In this document: piece after piece, positions 7,687 to 17,816 of the stretch
Layout: every line of letters begins with the position of its first letter
Numbering within the stretch: the first letter of the stretch is position 1
From: Chitinophagaceae bacterium
GTDB lineage: Bacteria; Bacteroidota; Bacteroidia; Chitinophagales; Chitinophagaceae
Length of the DNA: 48,031 bases
Assembly (NCBI GenBank): GCA_036275415.1
Contig: DASUDW010000142.1
Coordinates: 1-48,031, forward strand
Direction: 5' to 3'
Translations under genes and position numbers: made by a program
Notes under the pieces: model-generated
What the model saw: the letters and a program-made list of their open reading frames with translations, nothing else
What the model was told of the DNA's origin: nothing
Database searches by the model: none

Positions 7687-9351
7687 GTGAACACATTTGA
7701 ATCCCTGGGATTAGAGCAGGGTTTGTTGAACTCTATCCAGGCATTGGGTTTTACCCAGCCCACACCCATCCAGGAAAAAGCTATACCTGTTTTGTTGCAG
7801 GGCACCAAAGACTTTGTGGGCCTTGCTCAAACCGGAACGGGTAAAACTGCTGCCTTCGGCCTGCCTTTGCTCCAGCTTATTAATAAGGAAAACCGTTTTC
7901 CGCAGGCACTTATCATTTGCCCTACCCGTGAACTATGCCTGCAGATCACGGCAGACCTGGAGAAATTCAAGTCAAAAAAAGACCATATCGGCGTCACCGC
8001 AGTTTATGGCGGAGCATCTATCGGTGACCAGATCCGGAGTCTGAAAAAGGGCACACATATCGTTGTGGCCACCCCTGGCAGGCTGATAGACCTGATCGAA
8101 AGAAAGGCCATCAACCTTGAAGGCATTTATTATGTGGTACTGGATGAAGCAGATGAAATGCTCAATATGGGGTTCAAGGATGATATTGAGTTTATACTGA
8201 AAAATACCCCCAACCGCCAAAGCACCTGGCTTTTCAGCGCCACCATGCCGCCGGAAATCAGGCAGGTAAGCAAACGGTACATGGACAATCCGTTTGAGGT
8301 TACCATCGGTAAAGTGAATTCGGGCAATGCCAATATTGACCACCAGTATTACCTTACCCAGCATGCGAACCGGTACGAAACCCTGAAAAGGATCATTGAC
8401 TTCAACCCCGGTATTTACGGTATCATTTTTACCCGTACCAAGGCAGATGCACAGGAAATAACCGAATCACTGATCCGTGAAGGCTATGATATTGAAGCGT
8501 TGCATGGCGATTTGACGCAGGCACAACGGGATAAAGTGATGGCCCGTTTCCGGGAAAAAAGTATTCAGTTATTAATTGCTACGGATGTGGCAGCAAGGGG
8601 AATAGATGTACAGGGCATCACCCATGTCATTAATTACGAACTGCCGGATGATACCGAAGTGTATACCCACCGCAGCGGAAGAACGGGAAGGGCAGGCCGC
8701 AGTGGCATATCTATCTCAATTGTAACGCCAAAGGAAATTTACCGATTACGGCAAATTGAAAAACTGGTAAAGACACAGTTTCATAAAATGGATATACCCA
8801 GCGGTAAGGATGTATGCCGCAAACAGTTTTTCCATTTCATTGATAAAATGCTGCAGGCGGATATCAGTCACGGCGAATACGAAACATACCTGCCGGTGCT
8901 GAAAGAGAAGTTTGAACATGTGGAAAAGGAAGAAATATTACAGAAAGTAGCGGCATTGGAGTTTGACCGGTTCCTGAAGTATTATGAAAACGCTGCCGAT
9001 CTCAATATGCGGGAAGAAAGAAAGGGAGAACGCCGGGGTGAAAGAACGGAAGGAAGAAGTACAAGGGATACAAAAGGAAGAAGTTTTGCCGGTGGCGGTA
9101 ATTACCAACGGTTGTTCGTCAACCTGGGGACCAAAGATGGTTTTTACAAAGCCAGTTTCCTGCAGTTCATCCTTGATATGAGCGACCTGCGAAAAGATGT
9201 GCTGGGCAGGATTGATATGAAAGAAATGAATAGCTGGGTGGAAGTAGACGCATCAGCAGCTAAGAAAATGATCAAGGCGATTGACGGGAAAAATTACCGG
9301 GGCCGTAAGATCCGTATGAATGATGCGGAGACGGGAGGTAAACGAAAATAA
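7687..9351 (+). CDS. DEAD-box RNA helicase with C-terminal DbpA-type RNA-binding domain
   Basis: Q motif, AQTGTGKT, PTREL, TPGR, DEAD, SAT, ARGID, HRSGRTGRAG; GTG start. Confidence 0.95.
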   Translation: MNTFESLGLEQGLLNSIQALGFTQPTPIQEKAIPVLLQGTKDFVGLAQTGTGKTAAFGLPLLQLINKENRFPQALIICPTRELCLQITADLEKFKSKKDHIGVTAVYGGASIGDQIRSLKKGTHIVVATPGRLIDLIERKAINLEGIYYVVLDEADEMLNMGFKDDIEFILKNTPNRQSTWLFSATMPPEIRQVSKRYMDNPFEVTIGKVNSGNANIDHQYYLTQHANRYETLKRIIDFNPGIYGIIFTRTKADAQEITESLIREGYDIEALHGDLTQAQRDKVMARFREKSIQLLIATDVAARGIDVQGITHVINYELPDDTEVYTHRSGRTGRAGRSGISISIVTPKEIYRLRQIEKLVKTQFHKMDIPSGKDVCRKQFFHFIDKMLQADISHGEYETYLPVLKEKFEHVEKEEILQKVAALEFDRFLKYYENAADLNMREERKGERRGERTEGRSTRDTKGRSFAGGGNYQRLFVNLGTKDGFYKASFLQFILDMSDLRKDVLGRIDMKEMNSWVEVDASAAKKMIKAIDGKNYRGRKIRMNDAETGGKRK

Positions 9352-9388
9352 TTTTTATTATCCTGTTGGAAGTACGGAACCCAAAAAC

Positions 9389-9396
9389 TACATTTG
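9389..9396 (+). promoter_or_regulatory. -7 promoter element of the aromatic amino-acid operon
   Basis: TACATTTG, with TTG at 9366-9368 as possible -33; 4 nt upstream of the leader ATG. Confidence 0.65.
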
Positions 9397-9400
9397 TTTC

Positions 9401-9490
9401 ATGACATTGACAAAGGCATACTGGAGCTATTATTTTTATTACTTCTTTTTTGGAAAGAGGCCGGGAATGCTTTTGTTGAAATTAAAGTGA
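9401..9490 (+). CDS. Attenuator leader peptide (29 aa) MTLTKAYWSYYFYYFFFGKRPGMLLLKLK
   Basis: Translated by hand, below the ORF-track size cut-off; 10 of 11 consecutive codons are aromatic; lies directly upstream of a terminator and pheA. Confidence 0.9.
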   Translation: MTLTKAYWSYYFYYFFFGKRPGMLLLKLK

Positions 9491-9515
9491 ACAACTAAAA
9501 AACGCAACATAAAGG

Positions 9516-9548
9516 AAGTCCCGGCCAGAACAGGCCGGGATTTTTTTT
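9516..9548 (+). terminator. Attenuator (conditional) terminator
   Basis: TCCCGGCC-agaaca-GGCCGGGA plus T8; the 5' arm can pair alternatively with GGCCGGGA at 9459-9466. Confidence 0.9.
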
Positions 9549-9567
9549 GATTTGAAAATCTGAACTG

Positions 9568-10464
9568 ATGACGGATAAGAAAGCAAATAAACCAGGGGCT
9601 GGCAAAACAAGCGGAGATGCAAGTTCCCTTTTCCGGGGAGGCGGAATTGCTATTCAGGGTTACGAAGGCAGTTTTCACCAGGTTGCAGCGCAGCACTTCT
9701 TTGGTAAAAAAGTGCAGGTGATCTGCTGCGATACTTTTAAAGAAGTAGTAAAAACAGCATCCCATAAAAATGAAAGTGACGGCGGCGTAATGGCCATAGA
9801 AAATTCCATAGCAGGCAGCATATTGCCCAATTACAACCTGCTGCATAAAAGTAACCTCTGTATTGTTGGTGAAGTGTATTTGCAGATACGGCAGAACCTG
9901 CTCGTAAACCCCGGTGTGCAACTTAAAGATATCCGGGAAGTTCATTCACATACAATGGCCTTGCAGCAGTGTTATGAATACCTGGATAAGTATAAATGGA
10001 AGCTGGTAGAAACAGATGATACCGCATTAAGTGCCAAGCATATCCACCAGCACAAAAGCAAACATATTGCGGCTATTGCCAGCAAACTGGCAGCTGAGTT
10101 GTATCAGTTGGATGTGATGGCCCCCAATATTCATACGATGAAGAACAACTATACCCGGTTCTTATTGTTGCAGCGGCATGACAGGGCCTTGCCGGTGGAA
10201 GGAGCCGATAAGGCATCGGTTAGTTTTCATACTGACCATAGCAGGGGAAGCCTTGCAAAAGTGCTGACAAAAATTGCAGAGGGTGGAATAAACCTGAGCA
10301 AACTGCAAAGTTTCCCGATACCCGGCTCTGATTTTAAATATGCTTTTCATGCAGACCTGGAATTTGATTCCACTGAACATTTTAACAAAGTGGTTGAAAC
10401 AATTAAACCGTTAACGGAAACAATCAAAATTTACGGAGTATATAAAAGAGGGCTATGGAAATAA
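9568..10464 (+). CDS. pheA: Prephenate dehydratase with ACT domain
   Basis: IAIQGYEGSFH, AIENSIAG, SHTMALQQC, NYTRF, LSKLQSFP. Confidence 0.93.
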   Translation: MTDKKANKPGAGKTSGDASSLFRGGGIAIQGYEGSFHQVAAQHFFGKKVQVICCDTFKEVVKTASHKNESDGGVMAIENSIAGSILPNYNLLHKSNLCIVGEVYLQIRQNLLVNPGVQLKDIREVHSHTMALQQCYEYLDKYKWKLVETDDTALSAKHIHQHKSKHIAAIASKLAAELYQLDVMAPNIHTMKNNYTRFLLLQRHDRALPVEGADKASVSFHTDHSRGSLAKVLTKIAEGGINLSKLQSFPIPGSDFKYAFHADLEFDSTEHFNKVVETIKPLTETIKIYGVYKRGLWK

Positions 10465-11624
10465 AAACCAGTAATAGATTGAATGGAATCGGCGAATATT
10501 ACTTCTCTCAAAAACTTCGGGAGATCGATGAGTTGAATAAGGCCGGTAAAAATATCATTAACCTGGGCATCGGCAGTCCTGATATGTCGCCTCACCCGGA
10601 GGTGATTAAAGTGCTGCAGGAGGAATCAATTAAACCTAATGTTCATGCTTATCAATCGTACAAAGGTTCACCGGTGCTGCGAAAAGCCATGAGTAACTGG
10701 TATAAACAATGGTACGAAGCGGAACTTGATCCGGACACAGAGATATTACCGCTGATGGGAAGTAAAGAAGGAATCATGCATATCTGTATGACCTATTTAA
10801 ATAAAGGCGATTGGGTACTTGTGCCTAATCCCGGTTATCCTACTTATAGCAGTACAGTTAAACTGGCGGGAGGTAAATGTGTTGAATATAAATTATCAGT
10901 AAAAAATAATTATGAACCTGATTTTGATAAGCTGAATAAAAAGAATTTGCAGAAGGTTAAACTAATGTTTGTCAACTACCCGCAAATGCCCACCGGGCAG
11001 TTGCCTTCTGCAGCGTTGTTTAAAAAGTTGGTGGCTTTTGCTAAGGAAAACAAGATTTTGATTATACATGACAACCCATACAGTTTTATTCTTAATGACA
11101 ACCCATTGAGTTTTTTAAGCATTGACGGGGCAAAGGATTGTGTGATAGAATTAAACTCATTAAGCAAAAGCCATAATATGGCCGGCTGGCGGATTGGTAT
11201 GTTATGCGGGGCTAAACAACGAGTCGAAGAAGTGCTTCGTTTTAAGAGTAATATGGACAGCGGTATGTTTTTACCGGTACAGCTGGCAGCGGCCCGTGCT
11301 TTATCGCTGGGTAAAGAATGGCACGAAGCAATAAATTTGGTTTACCGGCAAAGAAGGGAAAAAGTGCTGGAACTATTGGACCTGCTGGGATGTACCTATG
11401 CAAAAGAACAAGCCGGTATGTTTGTGTGGGCCCGCATCCCTTCTGCTTATGCCAATGGTTATCAGCTTAGCGATGAACTGATGTTGAATGCAGGAGTGTT
11501 TATTACACCCGGCGGTATCTTCGGCAGTGCCGGTGAAAAATATATACGGATAAGTTTATGTAATAAAGAAGAAAAACTGGGAGAAGCAAAACAAAGAATA
11601 ATTATTTCATGGAAAAAAAAGTAA
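10455..11624 (+). CDS. Class I/II PLP aminotransferase (probably aromatic or prephenate aminotransferase by context)
   Basis: NLGIGSPD, GSKEGI, PNPGYP, DNPY, SLSKSHNMAGWRIG. Confidence 0.88.
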   Translation: MEIKTSNRLNGIGEYYFSQKLREIDELNKAGKNIINLGIGSPDMSPHPEVIKVLQEESIKPNVHAYQSYKGSPVLRKAMSNWYKQWYEAELDPDTEILPLMGSKEGIMHICMTYLNKGDWVLVPNPGYPTYSSTVKLAGGKCVEYKLSVKNNYEPDFDKLNKKNLQKVKLMFVNYPQMPTGQLPSAALFKKLVAFAKENKILIIHDNPYSFILNDNPLSFLSIDGAKDCVIELNSLSKSHNMAGWRIGMLCGAKQRVEEVLRFKSNMDSGMFLPVQLAAARALSLGKEWHEAINLVYRQRREKVLELLDLLGCTYAKEQAGMFVWARIPSAYANGYQLSDELMLNAGVFITPGGIFGSAGEKYIRISLCNKEEKLGEAKQRIIISWKKK

Positions 11625-12458: not shown

Positions 12459-12989
12459 ATGCGTACCAAAAGGGATAAACTGCTCTGTGTGGCTGCGCTC
12501 ATCACTTTCATCATCGGAAGTATCAATGCGGCCGAGTATTTTTTGGCAGGCAAAGATTATTTATACAAGAAAACAGCGATAGTGGAAAAAGTAACCCATG
12601 CACTGCACGAAAACAGAAAAGGCATTTTATATGAAGAAACAACCATCTGGCTTCAGCAGGTAAAAGGCAAGTTTTATGTCTATGACAAGGCCGATGACGG
12701 CGGTCATGTAGAAGTAGAAAAAGGCGATACCGTTACCGTTTATGCACGTAAATTGTTGCAGCCTTTGTATAATTATGATTACAGGAGCAATCTCTTTTAT
12801 GTGGAGGGCAACGGAAGAATGATCTATAACAACCTGGCGCAGTGGAAAGCCCCTGCATTTACATACATGTGTATTTCCCTCGGTTGTTCCCTTTTCCTGC
12901 TGATCATGTACCTCGACCAGGTAAAGAATGTCTCCATCAGCAACTGGTGGCAGCAACGGATGACAAACAAAAAAAAGAATGAAGGCTAA
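12459..12989 (+). CDS. Hypothetical two-TM membrane protein
   Basis: Hydrophobic segments at both ends with a beta-rich loop between; starts 1 nt after the tyrA stop. Confidence 0.7.
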   Translation: MRTKRDKLLCVAALITFIIGSINAAEYFLAGKDYLYKKTAIVEKVTHALHENRKGILYEETTIWLQQVKGKFYVYDKADDGGHVEVEKGDTVTVYARKLLQPLYNYDYRSNLFYVEGNGRMIYNNLAQWKAPAFTYMCISLGCSLFLLIMYLDQVKNVSISNWWQQRMTNKKKNEG

Positions 12990-13007
12990 AGAGTTAAATT
13001 TGTAACA

Positions 13008-14096
13008 ATGAATGTAACAGAACAAATCGCTCCGAAAGAAATTCTTTCTGTGTGGCATAAACGTCCGCTTATCATCAGCGGCCCCTGCAGTGCAGAAACC
13101 GAAGAACAGGTATTGGCCACCGCAAAACGACTGGCCGCTACCGGTAAAATAGACATGCTTCGTGCCGGCATCTGGAAACCCCGTACCAAGCCTGGTATGT
13201 TTGAAGGAGTTGGGGCCAAAGGGTTGCCCTGGCTGCAGCAGGCCAAAAAGCTGACCGGTTTGCCCACTACGGTGGAAGTAGCTACGGCCAAACAGGTACA
13301 GGATGCACTGACCTTTGATGTAGATGTACTATGGATCGGGGCCCGTACAACGGTCAATCCCTTCAGTGTGCAGGAAGTGGCAGATGCCCTTCGCGGAGTG
13401 GATGTGCCGGTAATGATCAAGAACCCGATCAATCCCGACCTGGAATTATGGAGCGGTGCAGTAGAAAGGGTAGCAAGGGCAGGAGTAAAACAAATTGGCC
13501 TGATCCACCGTGGCTTTAGCTCCTACGGCAATACCGAATACAGAAATGCACCTATGTGGCACCTGGCCATTGATATGAAACTGAAACATCCCGACCTGCC
13601 GCTGATAAATGATCCATCACATATTTGCGGCCGCAGGGATATTTTACTCGATGTAATGCAGAAAGCCATCGACCTAGATTATGACGGCCTGATGATTGAA
13701 AGTCATATAGACCCGGACAATGCCTGGAGCGATGCCAAACAACAGGTAACGCCTGAACGGCTTGCTGAACTGCTTGACCAGATCATCTGGAGAAAAGAAG
13801 ATGTAAACTCGGAAGAATACCATGCGGCGCTGGAAGCGTTGCGCCAGAAGATAAACCACCTGGATGATGAAATGATGCAGATACTAAGCCAGCGGATGAA
13901 AATTGCAGAACAAATTGGCCGGTATAAGAAGGATAATAACATTACCATTTTGCAGACCAGCCGGTGGAATGAGATCATTGAAAGGGCCAGCGTCAAAGGA
14001 GAGAAACTGGGATTGAGCAAAGAGTTCATCACGAAATACCTTGATGCGGTGCACATGGAAAGTATCAATCACCAGAAAAAAGTACTGGATAGTTAG
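13008..14096 (+). CDS. Bifunctional DAHP synthase (type I-beta-like) with C-terminal chorismate mutase
   Basis: SGPCSAE, RAGIWKPRT, WIGART, KNP, DPSHICG; C-terminal LRQKINHLD...RMKIAEQIGRYKK (AroQ-type). Confidence 0.92.
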   Translation: MNVTEQIAPKEILSVWHKRPLIISGPCSAETEEQVLATAKRLAATGKIDMLRAGIWKPRTKPGMFEGVGAKGLPWLQQAKKLTGLPTTVEVATAKQVQDALTFDVDVLWIGARTTVNPFSVQEVADALRGVDVPVMIKNPINPDLELWSGAVERVARAGVKQIGLIHRGFSSYGNTEYRNAPMWHLAIDMKLKHPDLPLINDPSHICGRRDILLDVMQKAIDLDYDGLMIESHIDPDNAWSDAKQQVTPERLAELLDQIIWRKEDVNSEEYHAALEALRQKINHLDDEMMQILSQRMKIAEQIGRYKKDNNITILQTSRWNEIIERASVKGEKLGLSKEFITKYLDAVHMESINHQKKVLDS

Positions 14097-14166: not shown

Positions 14167-15186
14167 ATGAAACACCTTAATATAAAATTTTCATCGGGCT
14201 CAACGGATTTGTTCTTCGCTTCAGGTATCAGCCATTTGAAAAAAATTACTGATCCTAAAGCAACGGTGCTGATCACTGATGAGAATGTGTACAGTGCCCA
14301 CCCCAAACGCTTCAAAGGCTGGAACACCATTGTGCTGAAACCCGGTGAAGCTTTTAAGGTGCAGTCAACAGTTGATGCAATCATTGAACAGCTTATCGCC
14401 ATGGAAGCCGACCGTAAAACAACACTGGTGGGGGTTGGCGGCGGTGTTATAACCGATATCACCGGTTATGTGGCATCGGTGTATATGCGTGGGCTCCGGT
14501 TTGGGTTTGTGCCTACATCTGTATTGGCATTAGTGGATGCTTCCGTTGGCGGCAAGAACGGTATCGATGTGGGAGTGTATAAAAATTTAGTCGGCATCAT
14601 CCGTCAGCCTTCCTTCATCCTGCACGACATGGTTTTTCTCAACAGCCTGCCGCAAGCAGAATGGGAAAATGGTTTTGCTGAGATCATCAAACATGCCTGT
14701 ATAAAAGATGCGGCATTGTTTGCCGAACTGGAGAATAAAGACCTGAAACATTTTCAGAAACATCAAAAATCAATATGTGAGTTGATTCAGCGTAACACAC
14801 TCCTAAAAATTAAAGTGGTCCAAAAAGATGAATTTGAAAAAAGGGAAAGGCGGTTACTGAATTTTGGACATACGCTGGGCCATGCACTGGAGACACAGTA
14901 TGAACTGCTGCACGGGCAGGCCATTTCCATCGGCATGACCTATGCCTGTCATTTATCCGAACAGCTTTGCGGCTTTACACAAACACAGCGGGTAGTTGAT
15001 CTGCTGGCAACATACAACCTGCCCACCTATGCCCGGTTCGACAAACAGAAAGTTTTCAATGTGCTGAAAATGGATAAAAAGCGGGAACGAAAAGAAATGA
15101 ATTATGTACTGCTGGAAAAGATTGGAAAAGGAGTGGTGAAGTCCATCACCTTACAACAATTGGAGCGGCTAATTGATAAATTATAA
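14167..15186 (+). CDS. aroB: 3-dehydroquinate synthase
   Basis: GGGVITD, DASVGGKNG, AEIIKH, LNFGHTLGHALE, LHGQAI, DKK. Confidence 0.95.
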   Translation: MKHLNIKFSSGSTDLFFASGISHLKKITDPKATVLITDENVYSAHPKRFKGWNTIVLKPGEAFKVQSTVDAIIEQLIAMEADRKTTLVGVGGGVITDITGYVASVYMRGLRFGFVPTSVLALVDASVGGKNGIDVGVYKNLVGIIRQPSFILHDMVFLNSLPQAEWENGFAEIIKHACIKDAALFAELENKDLKHFQKHQKSICELIQRNTLLKIKVVQKDEFEKRERRLLNFGHTLGHALETQYELLHGQAISIGMTYACHLSEQLCGFTQTQRVVDLLATYNLPTYARFDKQKVFNVLKMDKKRERKEMNYVLLEKIGKGVVKSITLQQLERLIDKL

Positions 15187-16521
15187 ATGAATCATTCAAA
15201 AAAGTATACGGTACGAATTGATCCTTTAGGGGAAAGGGCTTTACAAGGCGCCATCCAGGCGCCGGCTTCCAAAAGTTCTATGCAAAGGGCCTGTGCGGCT
15301 GCTTTATTGAGCAAAGGGGAAACAACAATTCTCAACCCCGGGCATAGTAATGATGATAAAGCGGCCCTGACTATCATAAAAGCTTTAGGAGCAGAAGTGG
15401 CAATGGATGGTAATAAGGTATATGTTAAAAGCGAAGGATGGCCATTCACCACTAACTCATCTCCACTTACAATTGATTGCGGCGAAAGTGGCTTGAGTAT
15501 CAGAATGTTTACCCTGCTGGCAGCCTTAAGCGATAAAGAAATCACCCTTACCGGATCGGGCAGCCTGCTCACAAGGCCCATGGATTTTTTTGATGAAATA
15601 TTGCCCCAACTCGGAGTGAACGTAAAAAGCAACCAGGGGAAATTACCCATTACCATACAAGGTCCCTTGCAGCCAAAAAATATTGAAATAGACGGCTCCC
15701 TTAGTTCACAATTTTTGACAGGCCTGCTGATGGCGTATGCGGCCGCCGGGGCCAAAGGGGTATCCATCAACGTAAAAAACCTTACAAGCAAACCCTATAT
15801 CGATTTAACGCTGGATGTAATGCAGCAGTTTGGATTAACGATACCGGAAAACAGGAACTATGAAGAGTTTATATTCCCTATCGGGCCGGCTCATATTTCT
15901 GAACCTATCACTCGTAACTATACAGTTGAAGGTGACTGGAGCGGCGGTGCATTCCTCCTGGTAGCCGGTGCTGTTGCTGGTCCCATAACAGTAAGAGGAC
16001 TCGATCTTACATCCACCCAGGCAGATAAAGCCATCGTTGATGCAATGATGGCGGCCAATGCGGCTATTGCAATGGATGCAAAAGGGATTACTGTTCATCC
16101 CGCTGATATGAGTGGTTTTTATTTCGATGCTACTGATTGCCCGGATTTGTTTCCGCCATTGGTGGCGCTGGCAGCTTATTGCAAGGGTATAACAACAATT
16201 AAAGGTGTATCCAGGTTAACCCATAAAGAAAGTAACAGGGCACTGGCCTTACAGGATGAATTTGATAAGATGGGAGTTTTTATTGAACTGAAAGAGGATA
16301 ACATGATAGTGCATGGCATATGTAAAGTGAAAGGGGCTGATGTGCATTCGCACCATGACCATCGCATTGCCATGGCTTGTGCCGTGGCCGCACTGAAAGC
16401 AGACAGTGAAACGGTTATTGAAGAAGCGGATGCAGTAAAAAAATCCTATCCTGATTTTTATACGGATTTGAAAAAGCTGGGGGCTGATGTATCTTTACCA
16501 ATCACACACTTCAACTTTTAA
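15187..16521 (+). CDS. aroA: EPSP synthase
   Basis: ASKSSMQR, CGESGLSIR, RPM, SSQFLTG, KESNR, HHDHRIAM, KSYPDF. Confidence 0.95.
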   Translation: MNHSKKYTVRIDPLGERALQGAIQAPASKSSMQRACAAALLSKGETTILNPGHSNDDKAALTIIKALGAEVAMDGNKVYVKSEGWPFTTNSSPLTIDCGESGLSIRMFTLLAALSDKEITLTGSGSLLTRPMDFFDEILPQLGVNVKSNQGKLPITIQGPLQPKNIEIDGSLSSQFLTGLLMAYAAAGAKGVSINVKNLTSKPYIDLTLDVMQQFGLTIPENRNYEEFIFPIGPAHISEPITRNYTVEGDWSGGAFLLVAGAVAGPITVRGLDLTSTQADKAIVDAMMAANAAIAMDAKGITVHPADMSGFYFDATDCPDLFPPLVALAAYCKGITTIKGVSRLTHKESNRALALQDEFDKMGVFIELKEDNMIVHGICKVKGADVHSHHDHRIAMACAVAALKADSETVIEEADAVKKSYPDFYTDLKKLGADVSLPITHFNF

Positions 16522-16524
16522 GCT

Positions 16525-17517
16525 TTGAACACATTCGGCCGCCTCTTCCGCATTTCCATCTTTGGTGAATCACATGGTGAGTGTGTGGGTATTACTATTG
16601 ACGGATGTCCGGCCGGTTTATCACTGTCACCGGAAGACTTGTTGCCGGATCTTGAACGAAGAAAAGGCGGTCAGGGTAAAGGCACTACTCCGAGAAAAGA
16701 AGAGGATTATCCCATTTTTAAAAGCGGGGTCTTTAATGGTAAAACCACCGGCTTTCCCATTACTATCTTATTTGAAAATAAAAATACCCGCAGCGAAGAT
16801 TATGAGAAGCAACGGAGTATTCCCCGCCCGGGGCATGCGGACTGGGTGGCACATCAAAAATTCGGCGGCAACGAAGATTACCGGGGCGGAGGGCATTTCA
16901 GTGCCAGGCTGACGGCCGGGTTGGTTGCTGCCGGGGCGATTGCTAAAAAATTAATGAACGATCTGTTAATCAGATCTGAAGTAATAGAAATCGGTGGTGA
17001 AAAAGATTTGGAAAAGGGCCTGCAAAAAGCCATCAATGCTAAAGACTCTGTTGGCGGCATCGTTGAATGCCGTGTCAGCGGATTGCCTGTTGGTTTGGGA
17101 GAACCTTATTTCGATTCACTGGAATCGGCACTGGCCCACATCATATTTGCCATCCCTGCTGTAAGGGGTATTGAATTCGGGACCGGGTTTGCGGCAGCCA
17201 AAATGTTCGGCAGTGAACATAATGATGCCATCGAAAACAGTGAAGGAAAGACAAAGACCAATCATGCCGGTGGCGTAGTTGGCGGCATCAGCAACGGCAA
17301 TGAACTGGTATTCAGGATAGCCATCAAGCCCACTTCCTCTACTCCGAAAGAGCAAAACAGCCTCAACTGGGATACGGGAAAAACAGAAGACTTTTCCATC
17401 AAAGGACGGCATGATCTGTGTGTCGCCCTCAGGGCGCCGGTCATTGTGGAGGCGGTCACTGCCATTGTACTGGCAGATTTTATGTTACTGGAACAAAAAA
17501 TTAAACGGGTGCTATAA
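16525..17517 (+). CDS. aroC: Chorismate synthase
   Basis: FGESHG, RPGHAD, RGGGHFSAR, KPTSS, GRHD; TTG start. Confidence 0.96.
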   Translation: MNTFGRLFRISIFGESHGECVGITIDGCPAGLSLSPEDLLPDLERRKGGQGKGTTPRKEEDYPIFKSGVFNGKTTGFPITILFENKNTRSEDYEKQRSIPRPGHADWVAHQKFGGNEDYRGGGHFSARLTAGLVAAGAIAKKLMNDLLIRSEVIEIGGEKDLEKGLQKAINAKDSVGGIVECRVSGLPVGLGEPYFDSLESALAHIIFAIPAVRGIEFGTGFAAAKMFGSEHNDAIENSEGKTKTNHAGGVVGGISNGNELVFRIAIKPTSSTPKEQNSLNWDTGKTEDFSIKGRHDLCVALRAPVIVEAVTAIVLADFMLLEQKIKRVL

Positions 17518-17816
17518 TGCCTATCATTTATCATATCGCATTTAAAGAAGCATGGGAAGAAGCCCTGCAAAAGGGTTATTATGATCATCCTTCACTGAAA
17601 GAAGAAGGATTTATCCATTGCTCCCAGGAAAACCAGGTGGCCGGTGTGCTGGAAAGATATTTTCCCGGCAAAACCGGTTTGGTAAAACTGGTAATCGACA
17701 CGGATAAACTGACCAGCAAATATGTGTTTGACTGGTCGCCTTCCACACAGGATACTTTTCCGCACATTTACGGCCCTGTTAACCTGGATGCTGTTACAGA
17801 GGTGAAATCGTTATAA
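17517..17816 (+). CDS. DUF952 family protein
   Basis: IYHI...W, SLKEEGFIHCS...Q, FPHIYGP; TAATG coupling to aroC. Confidence 0.85.
   Translation: MPIIYHIAFKEAWEEALQKGYYDHPSLKEEGFIHCSQENQVAGVLERYFPGKTGLVKLVIDTDKLTSKYVFDWSPSTQDTFPHIYGPVNLDAVTEVKSL

What the first reader, a model, noticed from the sequence alone, without database searches (positions are those of the whole stretch)
9389..9548. Unannotated ribosome-mediated attenuator reading Tyr, Phe and Trp together
Seen: a promoter box, then a 29-codon ORF (9401-9490) with the run Y-W-S-Y-Y-F-Y-Y-F-F-F (5 Tyr, 4 Phe, 1 Trp), then a terminator TCCCGGCC/GGCCGGGA+T8. Just after the control codons, GGCCGGGA (9459-9466) duplicates the terminator 3' arm and can pair with the 5' arm (9519-9526). 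The helix extends by CTTTTGTTG (9470-9478) pairing with CAACATAAAG (9505-9514). Inference: stalling on aromatic codons leaves this antiterminator free, and full translation disrupts it. Known: trpL and pheL each sense a single amino acid. Here one leader, probably translated leaderless, would integrate all three products over an ~8-kb operon, weighted to Tyr and Phe as the gene content predicts.
Basis: partly seen in the sequence, partly recalled or inferred. Interest (0 to 1): 0.8.

Follow-up and report, generated by a model that had tools for sequence, protein, structure and literature searches.

The report
Phe/Tyr leader-peptide attenuator before pheA
A tiny gene packed with phenylalanine and tyrosine codons, followed by a predicted either/or RNA stop signal, sits in front of this bacterium's aromatic amino-acid genes and likely turns them up when those two amino acids run short; this is a textbook kind of switch, already listed for the same gene in a Flavobacterium, and the claimed third (tryptophan) input is not conserved.

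Summary
The element is a conserved leader-peptide transcription attenuator in front of pheA in Chitinophagaceae. It is present at 127 of 130 close pheA loci. Antiterminator and terminator both show compensatory changes across 109 distinct leaders.

The three-amino-acid claim is weak. All 109 leaders carry 3-8 Phe and 2-6 Tyr codons. Only 24 have a Trp in the control region, never two, and only 1 of 19 in the genus. The genome has its own Trp-Trp-Trp leader before trpE. A second promoter box before aroF-CM suggests the attenuator chiefly governs pheA-aminotransferase-tyrA, not the whole 8 kb.

Leaderless translation is predicted from the promoter spacing. No RNA data could be laid on it.

It is not new in kind. 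Table S7 of PMC9723704 already lists a pheA leader-peptide attenuator with Phe, Tyr and one Trp in Flavobacterium psychrophilum. This scan found the same element before on another genome (e1-4080600). What stays open is an experimental test of Tyr sensing and of leaderless coupling.

The parts
7687..9351 (+). Upstream DEAD-box RNA helicase gene (not part of the switch; no terminator found between it and the promoter box)
   Evidence: Pfam DEAD, Helicase_C, DbpA; spacer folds at only -4.5 kcal/mol
9389..9396 (+). Bacteroidota -7 promoter element TACATTTG; predicted start site at 9401, the A of the leader AUG
   Evidence: Sequence; such a box lies 4-9 nt before the start codon in 104 of 109 leaders; 4-5 nt box-to-start spacing in F. 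johnsoniae (PMC6847099)
9401..9490 (+). Leader ORF, 29 codons, predicted leaderless
   Evidence: conserved at 127 of 130 close pheA loci
9407..9424 (+). Segment 1: 5' strand of the predicted protector (1:2) helix; includes the Trp8 codon 9422-9424, predicted to pair with 9461-9463
   Evidence: Minimum-energy fold; 75.6% of cells paired vs 49-58% for slid controls, but no excess of two-sided changes
9428..9451 (+). Core control codons Y10-F17 (4 Tyr, 4 Phe)
   Evidence: 738 of 763 core codons in 109 leaders are Phe or Tyr, 1 is Trp; modelled stall window
9459..9479 (+). Segment 2: 5' strand of the antiterminator (pairs with segment 3 or with segment 1)
   Evidence: Fold; covariation with segment 3: 93.5% paired, 9 of 16 pairs with two-sided changes, 0 of 500 shuffles
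9505..9526 (+). Segment 3: 3' strand of the antiterminator, including the terminator 5' arm 9519-9526
9519..9548 (+). Intrinsic terminator hairpin 9519-9540 with U8 tract 9541-9548
   Evidence: Fold -25.4 kcal/mol; 97% paired, 4 of 7 pairs with two-sided changes
9568..10464 (+). pheA, prephenate dehydratase (exact start codon uncertain)
   Evidence: PF00800 E 1e-57
10455..11624 (+). Class I/II aminotransferase
   Evidence: PF00155
11609..12457 (+). tyrA, prephenate dehydrogenase
   Evidence: NF006307 above cut-off
12459..12989 (+). 176-aa ORF of no known family, inserted in the operon
   Evidence: No Pfam or NCBIfam hit; unnamed Atlas clusters; in 3 of 71 relatives' loci
12995..13002 (+). Predicted internal -7 promoter TAAATTTG, 5 nt before the aroF-CM start
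   Evidence: consensus form in 19 of 56 relatives vs 0-1 for the five other genes
13008..14096 (+). DAHP synthase-chorismate mutase fusion (aroF-CM)
   Evidence: PF00793 + PF01817
14167..17517 (+). aroB (14167-15186), aroA (15187-16521), aroC (16525-17517)
   Evidence: TIGR01357, TIGR01356, NF003793/TIGR00033 above cut-off

Best explanation
A short Phe/Tyr-rich reading frame and three predicted competing RNA helices lie before pheA and likely form a classical ribosome-mediated transcription attenuator that would let transcription through when Phe-tRNA or Tyr-tRNA is scarce. Steps: (1) Transcription is predicted to start at the A of the leader AUG, 4 nt after the -7 box, so the leader would be translated leaderless (inferred). 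(2) With both amino acids plentiful, the ribosome would run past codon 17 onto segment 2. After it leaves, segment 2 would be held by segment 1, so 3:4 forms and RNA polymerase stops near 9545 (inferred; helices 2:3 and 3:4 have covariation support, 1:2 has folding support only). (3) A stall in the Y10-F16 run would mask segment 1 and leave segment 2 free, so 2:3 forms before the terminator is complete and transcription enters pheA-aminotransferase-tyrA (inferred). (4) The single Trp codon is likely a by-product of a G-rich patch needed for the 1:2 helix and gives at most a weak input; Trp supply is likely read by the separate WWW leader before trpE. (5) The shikimate genes likely also have their own promoter at 12995.
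For: Conservation: a leader at 127 of 130 close pheA loci, the 3 misses having under 240 nt of contig upstream. Every one of 109 distinct leaders has 3-8 Phe and 2-6 Tyr. In the core, 738 of 763 codons are Phe or Tyr, and all four Phe/Tyr codons occur there, which points to selection on the decoded amino acid. Antiterminator: 93.5% paired, 27 cells with two-sided changes against 4.8 in shuffles, slid controls 33-54% paired; median duplex -24.2 vs -10.7 kcal/mol shuffled, 109 of 109 better than at least 29 of 30 shuffles. Terminator: 97% paired. Geometry: modelled antiterminator probability peaks for A-site positions about -11 to -5 codons from the Pro codon and falls to 0 once the ribosome passes the run; this matches the Phe/Tyr block. 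Trp: 24 of 109 leaders, 1 of 19 in the genus. The Trp codon is the predicted partner of the segment-2 CC in 20 of 24 such leaders; 81 of 85 Trp-free leaders pair the same CC with codons 6-14. A Trp8 stall here gives 2-4% antiterminator at equilibrium against up to 77% for the core. A dedicated WWW leader with terminator precedes trpE. Gene order pheA-aminotransferase-tyrA-aroF/CM-aroB-aroA holds in 51 of 51 loci with 8 kb downstream.
Against: Nothing is shown at the RNA or protein level for this genome. At equilibrium the modelled antiterminator reaches only about 0.47 on average, so read-through depends on folding order, which was not simulated. If segment 1 may pair across the ribosome, stalls from about Y13/Y14 onward favour the terminator ('foot' mode). 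The 1:2 helix has no excess of two-sided changes (8 pairs vs 9.4 in shuffles), and 26 of 109 leaders were not clearly better than shuffles. In C. glutamicum a Phe-Tyr-Phe leader is reported not to respond to Tyr (review PMC11802643). The start codon was picked as the one nearest a promoter box, so the spacing count is partly circular. The loci are kin, and the shuffle counts are not probabilities.
Confidence: 0.72

Rival explanations
1. One reading: the leader reads Tyr, Phe and Trp together, and a stall at the single Trp codon would also open the operon, so Trp shortage boosts the common shikimate pathway.
For: Before the terminator's 3' arm is made, the antiterminator forms with the ribosome anywhere from codon 1 to about codon 16, Trp8 included. 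In 9 of 24 Trp-bearing leaders a Trp stall gives a modelled antiterminator probability of 0.4 or more. Trp recurs: 9 changes on the pheA tree, at least 3 forced by well-supported branches. It is commoner at the 5' edge (23) than Cys (2), and sits in or beside the run in 9 of 41 leaders listed from the more distant loci and in the F. psychrophilum leader. The cluster holds aroF/B/A/C. Single regulatory codons can work in other attenuators (recalled, not checked).
Against: 85 of 109 leaders lack a control-region Trp while the operon is the same: 10 Trp-bearing and 41 Trp-free loci share the order through aroA. trpA is found in 49 of the 50 genomes tested (23 of 24 Trp-bearing, 26 of 26 Trp-free), so the Trp codon does not track the trp pathway. 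Close relatives read Arg (CGG) or Phe at the place of Trp8. Trp is never tandem. A dedicated WWW leader exists. The aro genes have their own predicted promoter.
Confidence: 0.15
2. The switch is real but responds in practice to Phe only; the Tyr codons are tolerated U-rich filler or give little control.
For: The last codons before segment 2 are mostly Phe (91 of 97 at -4, 70 at -5, 79 at -6). The C. glutamicum aroR leader (Phe-Tyr-Phe) is said to respond to Phe but not Tyr (PMC11802643; the primary paper was not seen).
Against: Tyr is the majority residue at -7, -8 and -10 (80, 62 and 57 of 97), inside the modelled stall window. No leader has fewer than 2 Tyr. tyrA follows in the same unit. 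Another paper describes aroR as controlled by phenylalanine and tyrosine (PMC7356990).
Confidence: 0.1
3. The hairpin is only the terminator of the upstream helicase gene, or the peptide acts as a nascent arrest peptide or small membrane protein, with no tRNA sensing.
For: No terminator was found between the helicase stop and the promoter box. The helicase lies upstream in 41 of 71 loci. The C-terminal part (PG-ML-LL) looks conserved.
Against: The leader stays with pheA where no helicase was seen upstream (30 of 71, some on short contigs). The antiterminator covaries. Several leaders change frame or stop right after the run yet keep the segment-2 bases (for example L059, L071, L095, L125, L132, L136), so the RNA is conserved there, not the peptide tail.
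Confidence: 0.03

Closest known systems
[quoted passage not shown]
   Same: Same position (before pheA and an aminotransferase), same phylum, 27-codon leader with 3 Phe, 4 Tyr and 1 Trp, a long hairpin and a U-tailed terminator. The authors note the pheA 5' element is conserved in other Flavobacteriaceae genera and has no Rfam entry. A model built here finds full-length matches at 10 of 12 pheA loci from other families of the class, some with very similar peptides.
   Different: There the leader AUG lies about 20 nt after the mapped 5' end; here it is predicted leaderless. Those rows describe no antiterminator, covariation or amino-acid specificity. I did not align the F. psychrophilum sequence itself.
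E. coli pheL-pheA and trpL attenuators (Rfam Phe_leader RF01859, Trp_leader RF00513)
   Same: Leader ORF with a run of control codons; 1:2, 2:3 and 3:4 helices; intrinsic terminator before pheA.
   Different: Rfam Phe_leader scores 21.6 bits against a cut-off of 55; no family reaches its cut-off in the window. Mixed Phe/Tyr codons; no ribosome-binding leader predicted.
Corynebacterium glutamicum aroR leader before aroF (Neshat et al. 2014, seen only through review PMC11802643, and PMC7356990)
   Same: Mixed Phe and Tyr control codons before aromatic biosynthesis genes.
   Different: Three codons (Phe-Tyr-Phe) before a DAHP synthase, reported as Phe- but not Tyr-responsive. Here there are 8 core codons, half of them Tyr, before pheA-tyrA.
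Multivalent attenuators thrL (Thr/Ile) and ilvGMEDA (Leu/Ile/Val) (recalled)
   Same: One leader reads several amino acids of a branched pathway.
   Different: Different amino acids and no sequence relation tested; Rfam Thr_leader scores 25.1 bits against a cut-off of 55.
Putative attenuator before the Bacteroides thetaiotaomicron pheA-hisHb-aroA/aroQ-tyrA operon (PMC1173090 Table 7, passages seen)
   Same: Attenuation predicted for the same operon type in the same phylum.
   Different: A database prediction of terminator/antiterminator with no leader peptide in the passages seen. My model found no match at 30 top-scoring prephenate-dehydratase loci of the phylum sample (29 from other classes) and 2 of 20 further loci from other classes.

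Membership tests
Ribosome-mediated (leader-peptide) transcription attenuators of amino-acid operons | Short upstream ORF with a run of codons for the pathway's end products | tested here: met
   5 Tyr + 4 Phe before pheA-tyrA; conserved at 127 of 130 loci
Ribosome-mediated (leader-peptide) transcription attenuators of amino-acid operons | Intrinsic terminator between the leader and the first gene | tested here: met
   Hairpin 9519-9540 + U8; 97% paired with two-sided changes
Ribosome-mediated (leader-peptide) transcription attenuators of amino-acid operons | Antiterminator mutually exclusive with the terminator | tested here: met
   9 of 16 pairs with two-sided changes, 0 of 500 shuffles; shares 9519-9526 with the terminator
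Ribosome-mediated (leader-peptide) transcription attenuators of amino-acid operons | Control codons placed so that a stall frees the antiterminator and passage blocks it | tested here: met
   Constrained folding of 109 leaders: peak over the Phe/Tyr block, zero beyond it; modest amplitude, equilibrium model only
Ribosome-mediated (leader-peptide) transcription attenuators of amino-acid operons | Protector (1:2) helix | tested here: inconclusive
   Minimum-energy fold, and 83 of 109 better than shuffles; no excess covariation
Ribosome-mediated (leader-peptide) transcription attenuators of amino-acid operons | Leader is translated and termination responds to charged-tRNA supply | not testable with these tools
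   Needs Ribo-seq, 3'-end mapping and reporters
Rfam Phe_leader RF01859 (enterobacterial pheL) | Covariance-model score at or above the gathering cut-off | tested here: not met
   21.6 bits vs 55
Bacteroidota pheA leader as listed for F. psychrophilum | Phe/Tyr leader + terminator before pheA-aminotransferase, found by one model across families | tested here: met
   Model R1 hits 10 of 12 loci of other families in the class and 22 of 28 more distant loci of the family, and only this locus strongly in the own genome; the F. psychrophilum sequence itself was not scored
   24 of 109 leaders, 1 of 763 core codons, 1 of 19 in the genus; Trp8 stall gives 2-4% antiterminator in the equilibrium model

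The most novel reading that the evidence does not exclude
A leaderless, three-input aromatic attenuator. In this genome and in the Trp-bearing lineages, one leader starting at the first transcribed base reads Phe-, Tyr- and Trp-tRNA at once, with the Trp codon doing double duty as a structural latch and a sensor, switched on and off by single substitutions in evolution. It would be the first bacterial leader shown to gauge all three aromatic amino acids; I found no experimental demonstration of Tyr-responsive leader-peptide attenuation in nine searches.
Probability: 0.15. Interest if true: 0.55.

Novelty: new member of a known kind. Interest (0 to 1): 0.3.

Why it matters
It extends a known Bacteroidota pheA leader from one supplementary-table row to a family of over 100 distinct sequences, with covariation evidence for the antiterminator. 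It has no Rfam model, so it is a ready candidate for one. It is a clean system to test two points I did not find settled in the papers searched. One is whether Tyr codons in a leader really confer tyrosine control, since the nearest tested case (aroR) is reported as Phe-only. The other is whether attenuation works when the ribosome must load on a leaderless 5' end in a phylum without Shine-Dalgarno sequences. It does not reveal a new regulatory principle.

Tried and rejected
RNA evidence: no RNA holder was listed for window 9000-11000, so no reads were laid; this is no evidence either way. Rfam: no match at the gathering cut-off in the window, only sub-threshold hits around the leader, and none at E<=1 in the trpA and trpE loci, so the Bacteroid-trp family (RF01692, listed in PMC2864571) did not pick up the local WWW leader. 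The sigma-70 promoter hit at 9407-9436 was rejected: it lies inside the ORF and is at chance level. The longer in-frame ORF from 9320 (56 aa) was rejected as the leader start: it overlaps the helicase end, lies upstream of the promoter box, and is open in only some relatives. RNAalifold recovered only the terminator, so the alternative helices were tested by naming them. Test of Trp codon against trp pathway: uninformative, because trpA is in 49 of the 50 genomes tested (50 of the 109 leaders). trpC (PF00218) was not found in the own genome, which is in 398 contigs with trpE and trpA on separate contigs; I draw nothing from that. The careful tree did not finish; the quick tree was used, with 107 of 109 rows. 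Two comparative-genomics papers on attenuators (Lopatovskaya 2010, Vitreschak 2004) are not held; I recall that they predicted attenuators in Bacteroidetes, and they may already cover this element. The SI appendix section on 5' elements cited in PMC9723704 was not seen and may describe it further. PMC4833913 and PMC3082878 (passages) had nothing on Bacteroidota pheA. PMC2659441 (passages) lists Shewanella aroF as 'attenuator sensing tyr-tRNA' in a table, without a leader sequence in the passages seen.

Full report
Observation. The aromatic run is the densest among 28,443 short ORFs of the genome. The duplicate 8-mer is expected 0.0003 times by chance. Folding gives the antiterminator for 9455-9530 (-26.3 kcal/mol) and the terminator for 9500-9549 (-25.4), each better than all 200 shuffles. 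The whole ribosome-free leader folds into a further helix, 9407-9424 with 9461-9479, plus the terminator. No Rfam family reaches its cut-off.

Context. Downstream lie prephenate dehydratase, an aminotransferase, prephenate dehydrogenase, a 176-aa ORF of no known family, a DAHP synthase-chorismate mutase fusion, aroB, aroA and aroC. Upstream lies a DEAD-box helicase. Record titles of the nearest relatives name mostly Chitinophagaceae or unassigned Bacteroidota. The order through aroA holds in 51 of 51 related loci with 8 kb downstream; aroC was in view in 45 of them.

Conservation. I took the DNA upstream of pheA in 130 close loci; six loci from other families and three duplicate loci were set aside first. 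127 hold the leader, and the 3 misses have under 240 nt of contig upstream. These are the best-scoring pheA relatives, so the sample leans towards near kin. The 109 distinct leaders carry 3-8 Phe (mean 5.3) and 2-6 Tyr (mean 4.0). In the seven codons before the spacer, 738 of 763 are Phe or Tyr and one is Trp. A covariance model of these finds full-length matches at 22 of 28 further, mostly more distant loci of the family and 10 of 12 loci from other families of the class. It finds 2 of 5 from other families of the order, 2 of 20 from other classes, and 0 of 30 top-scoring prephenate-dehydratase loci of the phylum sample (E up to 1, rough). Some misses may be genes that are not first in their operon. 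In the own genome only this locus scores strongly.

Structure. On alignment A1 the antiterminator is paired in 93.5% of cells. Nine of 16 pairs show two-sided changes (27 cells against 4.8 in shuffles), and slid controls give 33-54% paired. The terminator is paired in 97% of cells. The 1:2 protector is weaker: 75.6% paired against 49-58% slid, with no excess of two-sided changes, and 83 of 109 leaders beat their shuffles. The rows are kin, so shuffle counts overstate.

Geometry. I masked a ribosome footprint at each codon and folded the transcript to the end of the hairpin. In this sequence the antiterminator reaches 27-77% for stalls at about Y10/Y11 to F15/F16, 1-4% at Y7 and W8, and 0 from F17 or G18 on. 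Across 109 leaders the mean peaks at 0.47 over the Phe/Tyr block and drops to 0 beyond it. Two results cut against a simple reading. Before the terminator's 3' arm exists, the antiterminator forms with the ribosome anywhere from codon 1 to about 16. And if segment 1 may pair across the ribosome, late stalls favour termination. The outcome therefore depends on folding order, which I did not simulate.

The Trp question. 25 of 109 leaders contain a Trp, 24 in the control region, none two, and 1 of 19 in the genus. Close relatives have Arg (CGG) or Phe at the place of Trp8. In folds of the leader alone, the Trp codon is the partner of the CC of segment 2 in 20 of 24 cases. 81 of 85 Trp-free leaders pair that CC with the same stretch, where Gly and Arg codons are common (59 and 37 at the 5' edge). 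The genome has a separate WWW leader with terminator before trpE and a His-rich leader before a hisG-like gene (named from its N-terminus by recall). Operon content does not differ between Trp-bearing and Trp-free loci, nor does trpA presence (49 of 50 tested). A minor Trp input is not excluded; I put it at 0.15.

Reach of control. A second -7 box, TAAATTTG at 12995-13002, lies 5 nt before aroF-CM. The consensus form is present before aroF-CM in 19 of 56 relatives and before the other five genes in 0-1. A variant ending in A adds 25 more, but that variant also occurs before aroC (23 of 38) and may not be a promoter. So the attenuator likely governs chiefly pheA-aminotransferase-tyrA, the Phe/Tyr branch, which fits its codons.

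Leaderless start. [quoted passage not shown] Here 4 nt separate the box from the AUG. The spacing is 4 nt in 56, 7 nt in 31, and 4-9 nt in 104 of 109 leaders (the start was chosen as nearest to a box). This is not special to the leader: 38 of 338 long ORFs with such a box in this genome also have 4 nt.

Prior knowledge. [quoted passage not shown] The main text says the element is conserved in other Flavobacteriaceae and absent from Rfam (passages). A putative attenuator before the B. thetaiotaomicron pheA operon is tabulated in PMC1173090 (passages). C. glutamicum aroR is a Phe-Tyr-Phe leader, reported as Phe- but not Tyr-responsive (review PMC11802643, passages). Multivalent leaders such as thrL and ilvGMEDA are textbook (recalled). 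Nine searches showed no paper on the Chitinophagaceae element and no experimental test of the Bacteroidota pheA leader; two key comparative papers are not held. An earlier report of this scan reached the same reading on another Chitinophagaceae genome (e1-4080600); I saw it after forming my view.

Verdict. A real, well-conserved Phe/Tyr leader-peptide attenuator, a new member of a known kind with a listed homologue. The three-amino-acid, 8-kb integration is not supported as the family's design. Interest 0.3.

Noticed in passing
L024, L175, L177, L178, L180, L185 (upstream of pheA): Two Phe/Tyr leader + terminator units in tandem before pheA in several more distant relatives (the model hits twice in L175, L178, L180, L185). 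This would square the response.
   Followed up: partly
own genome, all contigs: The distance from TAHHTTTG to the start of long ORFs peaks at 4 nt (38 of 338; 93 of 338 at 3-9 nt). This predicts more leaderless mRNAs than the 3.7% and 5.5% reported for B. thetaiotaomicron and F. psychrophilum. Motif-based only.
   Followed up: partly
G000:C345:1337 (+) and G000:C359:5683 (-): A Trp-Trp-Trp leader with terminator before trpE and a His-rich leader before a hisG-like gene, 6 and 7 nt after a -7 box. The trpE locus gave no Rfam hit.
   Followed up: partly
window 12995-13002: Conserved internal -7 promoter box 3-6 nt before aroF-CM (19 of 56 relatives), with a TAHHTTTA variant in 25 more.
   Followed up: partly
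window 12459-12989: 176-aa ORF with hydrophobic stretches near both ends and no family, inserted between tyrA and aroF-CM; found in only 3 of 71 related loci.
   Followed up: partly
window 17517-17816: DUF952 gene overlapping the aroC stop; my scan found no strong terminator between the attenuator and 17900.
   Followed up: no
109 leaders: Promoter-to-AUG spacing is bimodal, 4 nt (56) and 7 nt (31), one codon apart; unexplained.
   Followed up: no
L053, L057, L066, L067, L071, L088, L092, L093, L095, L098, L100: A helicase-like match lies inside the operon after tyrA instead of upstream of the leader.
   Followed up: no
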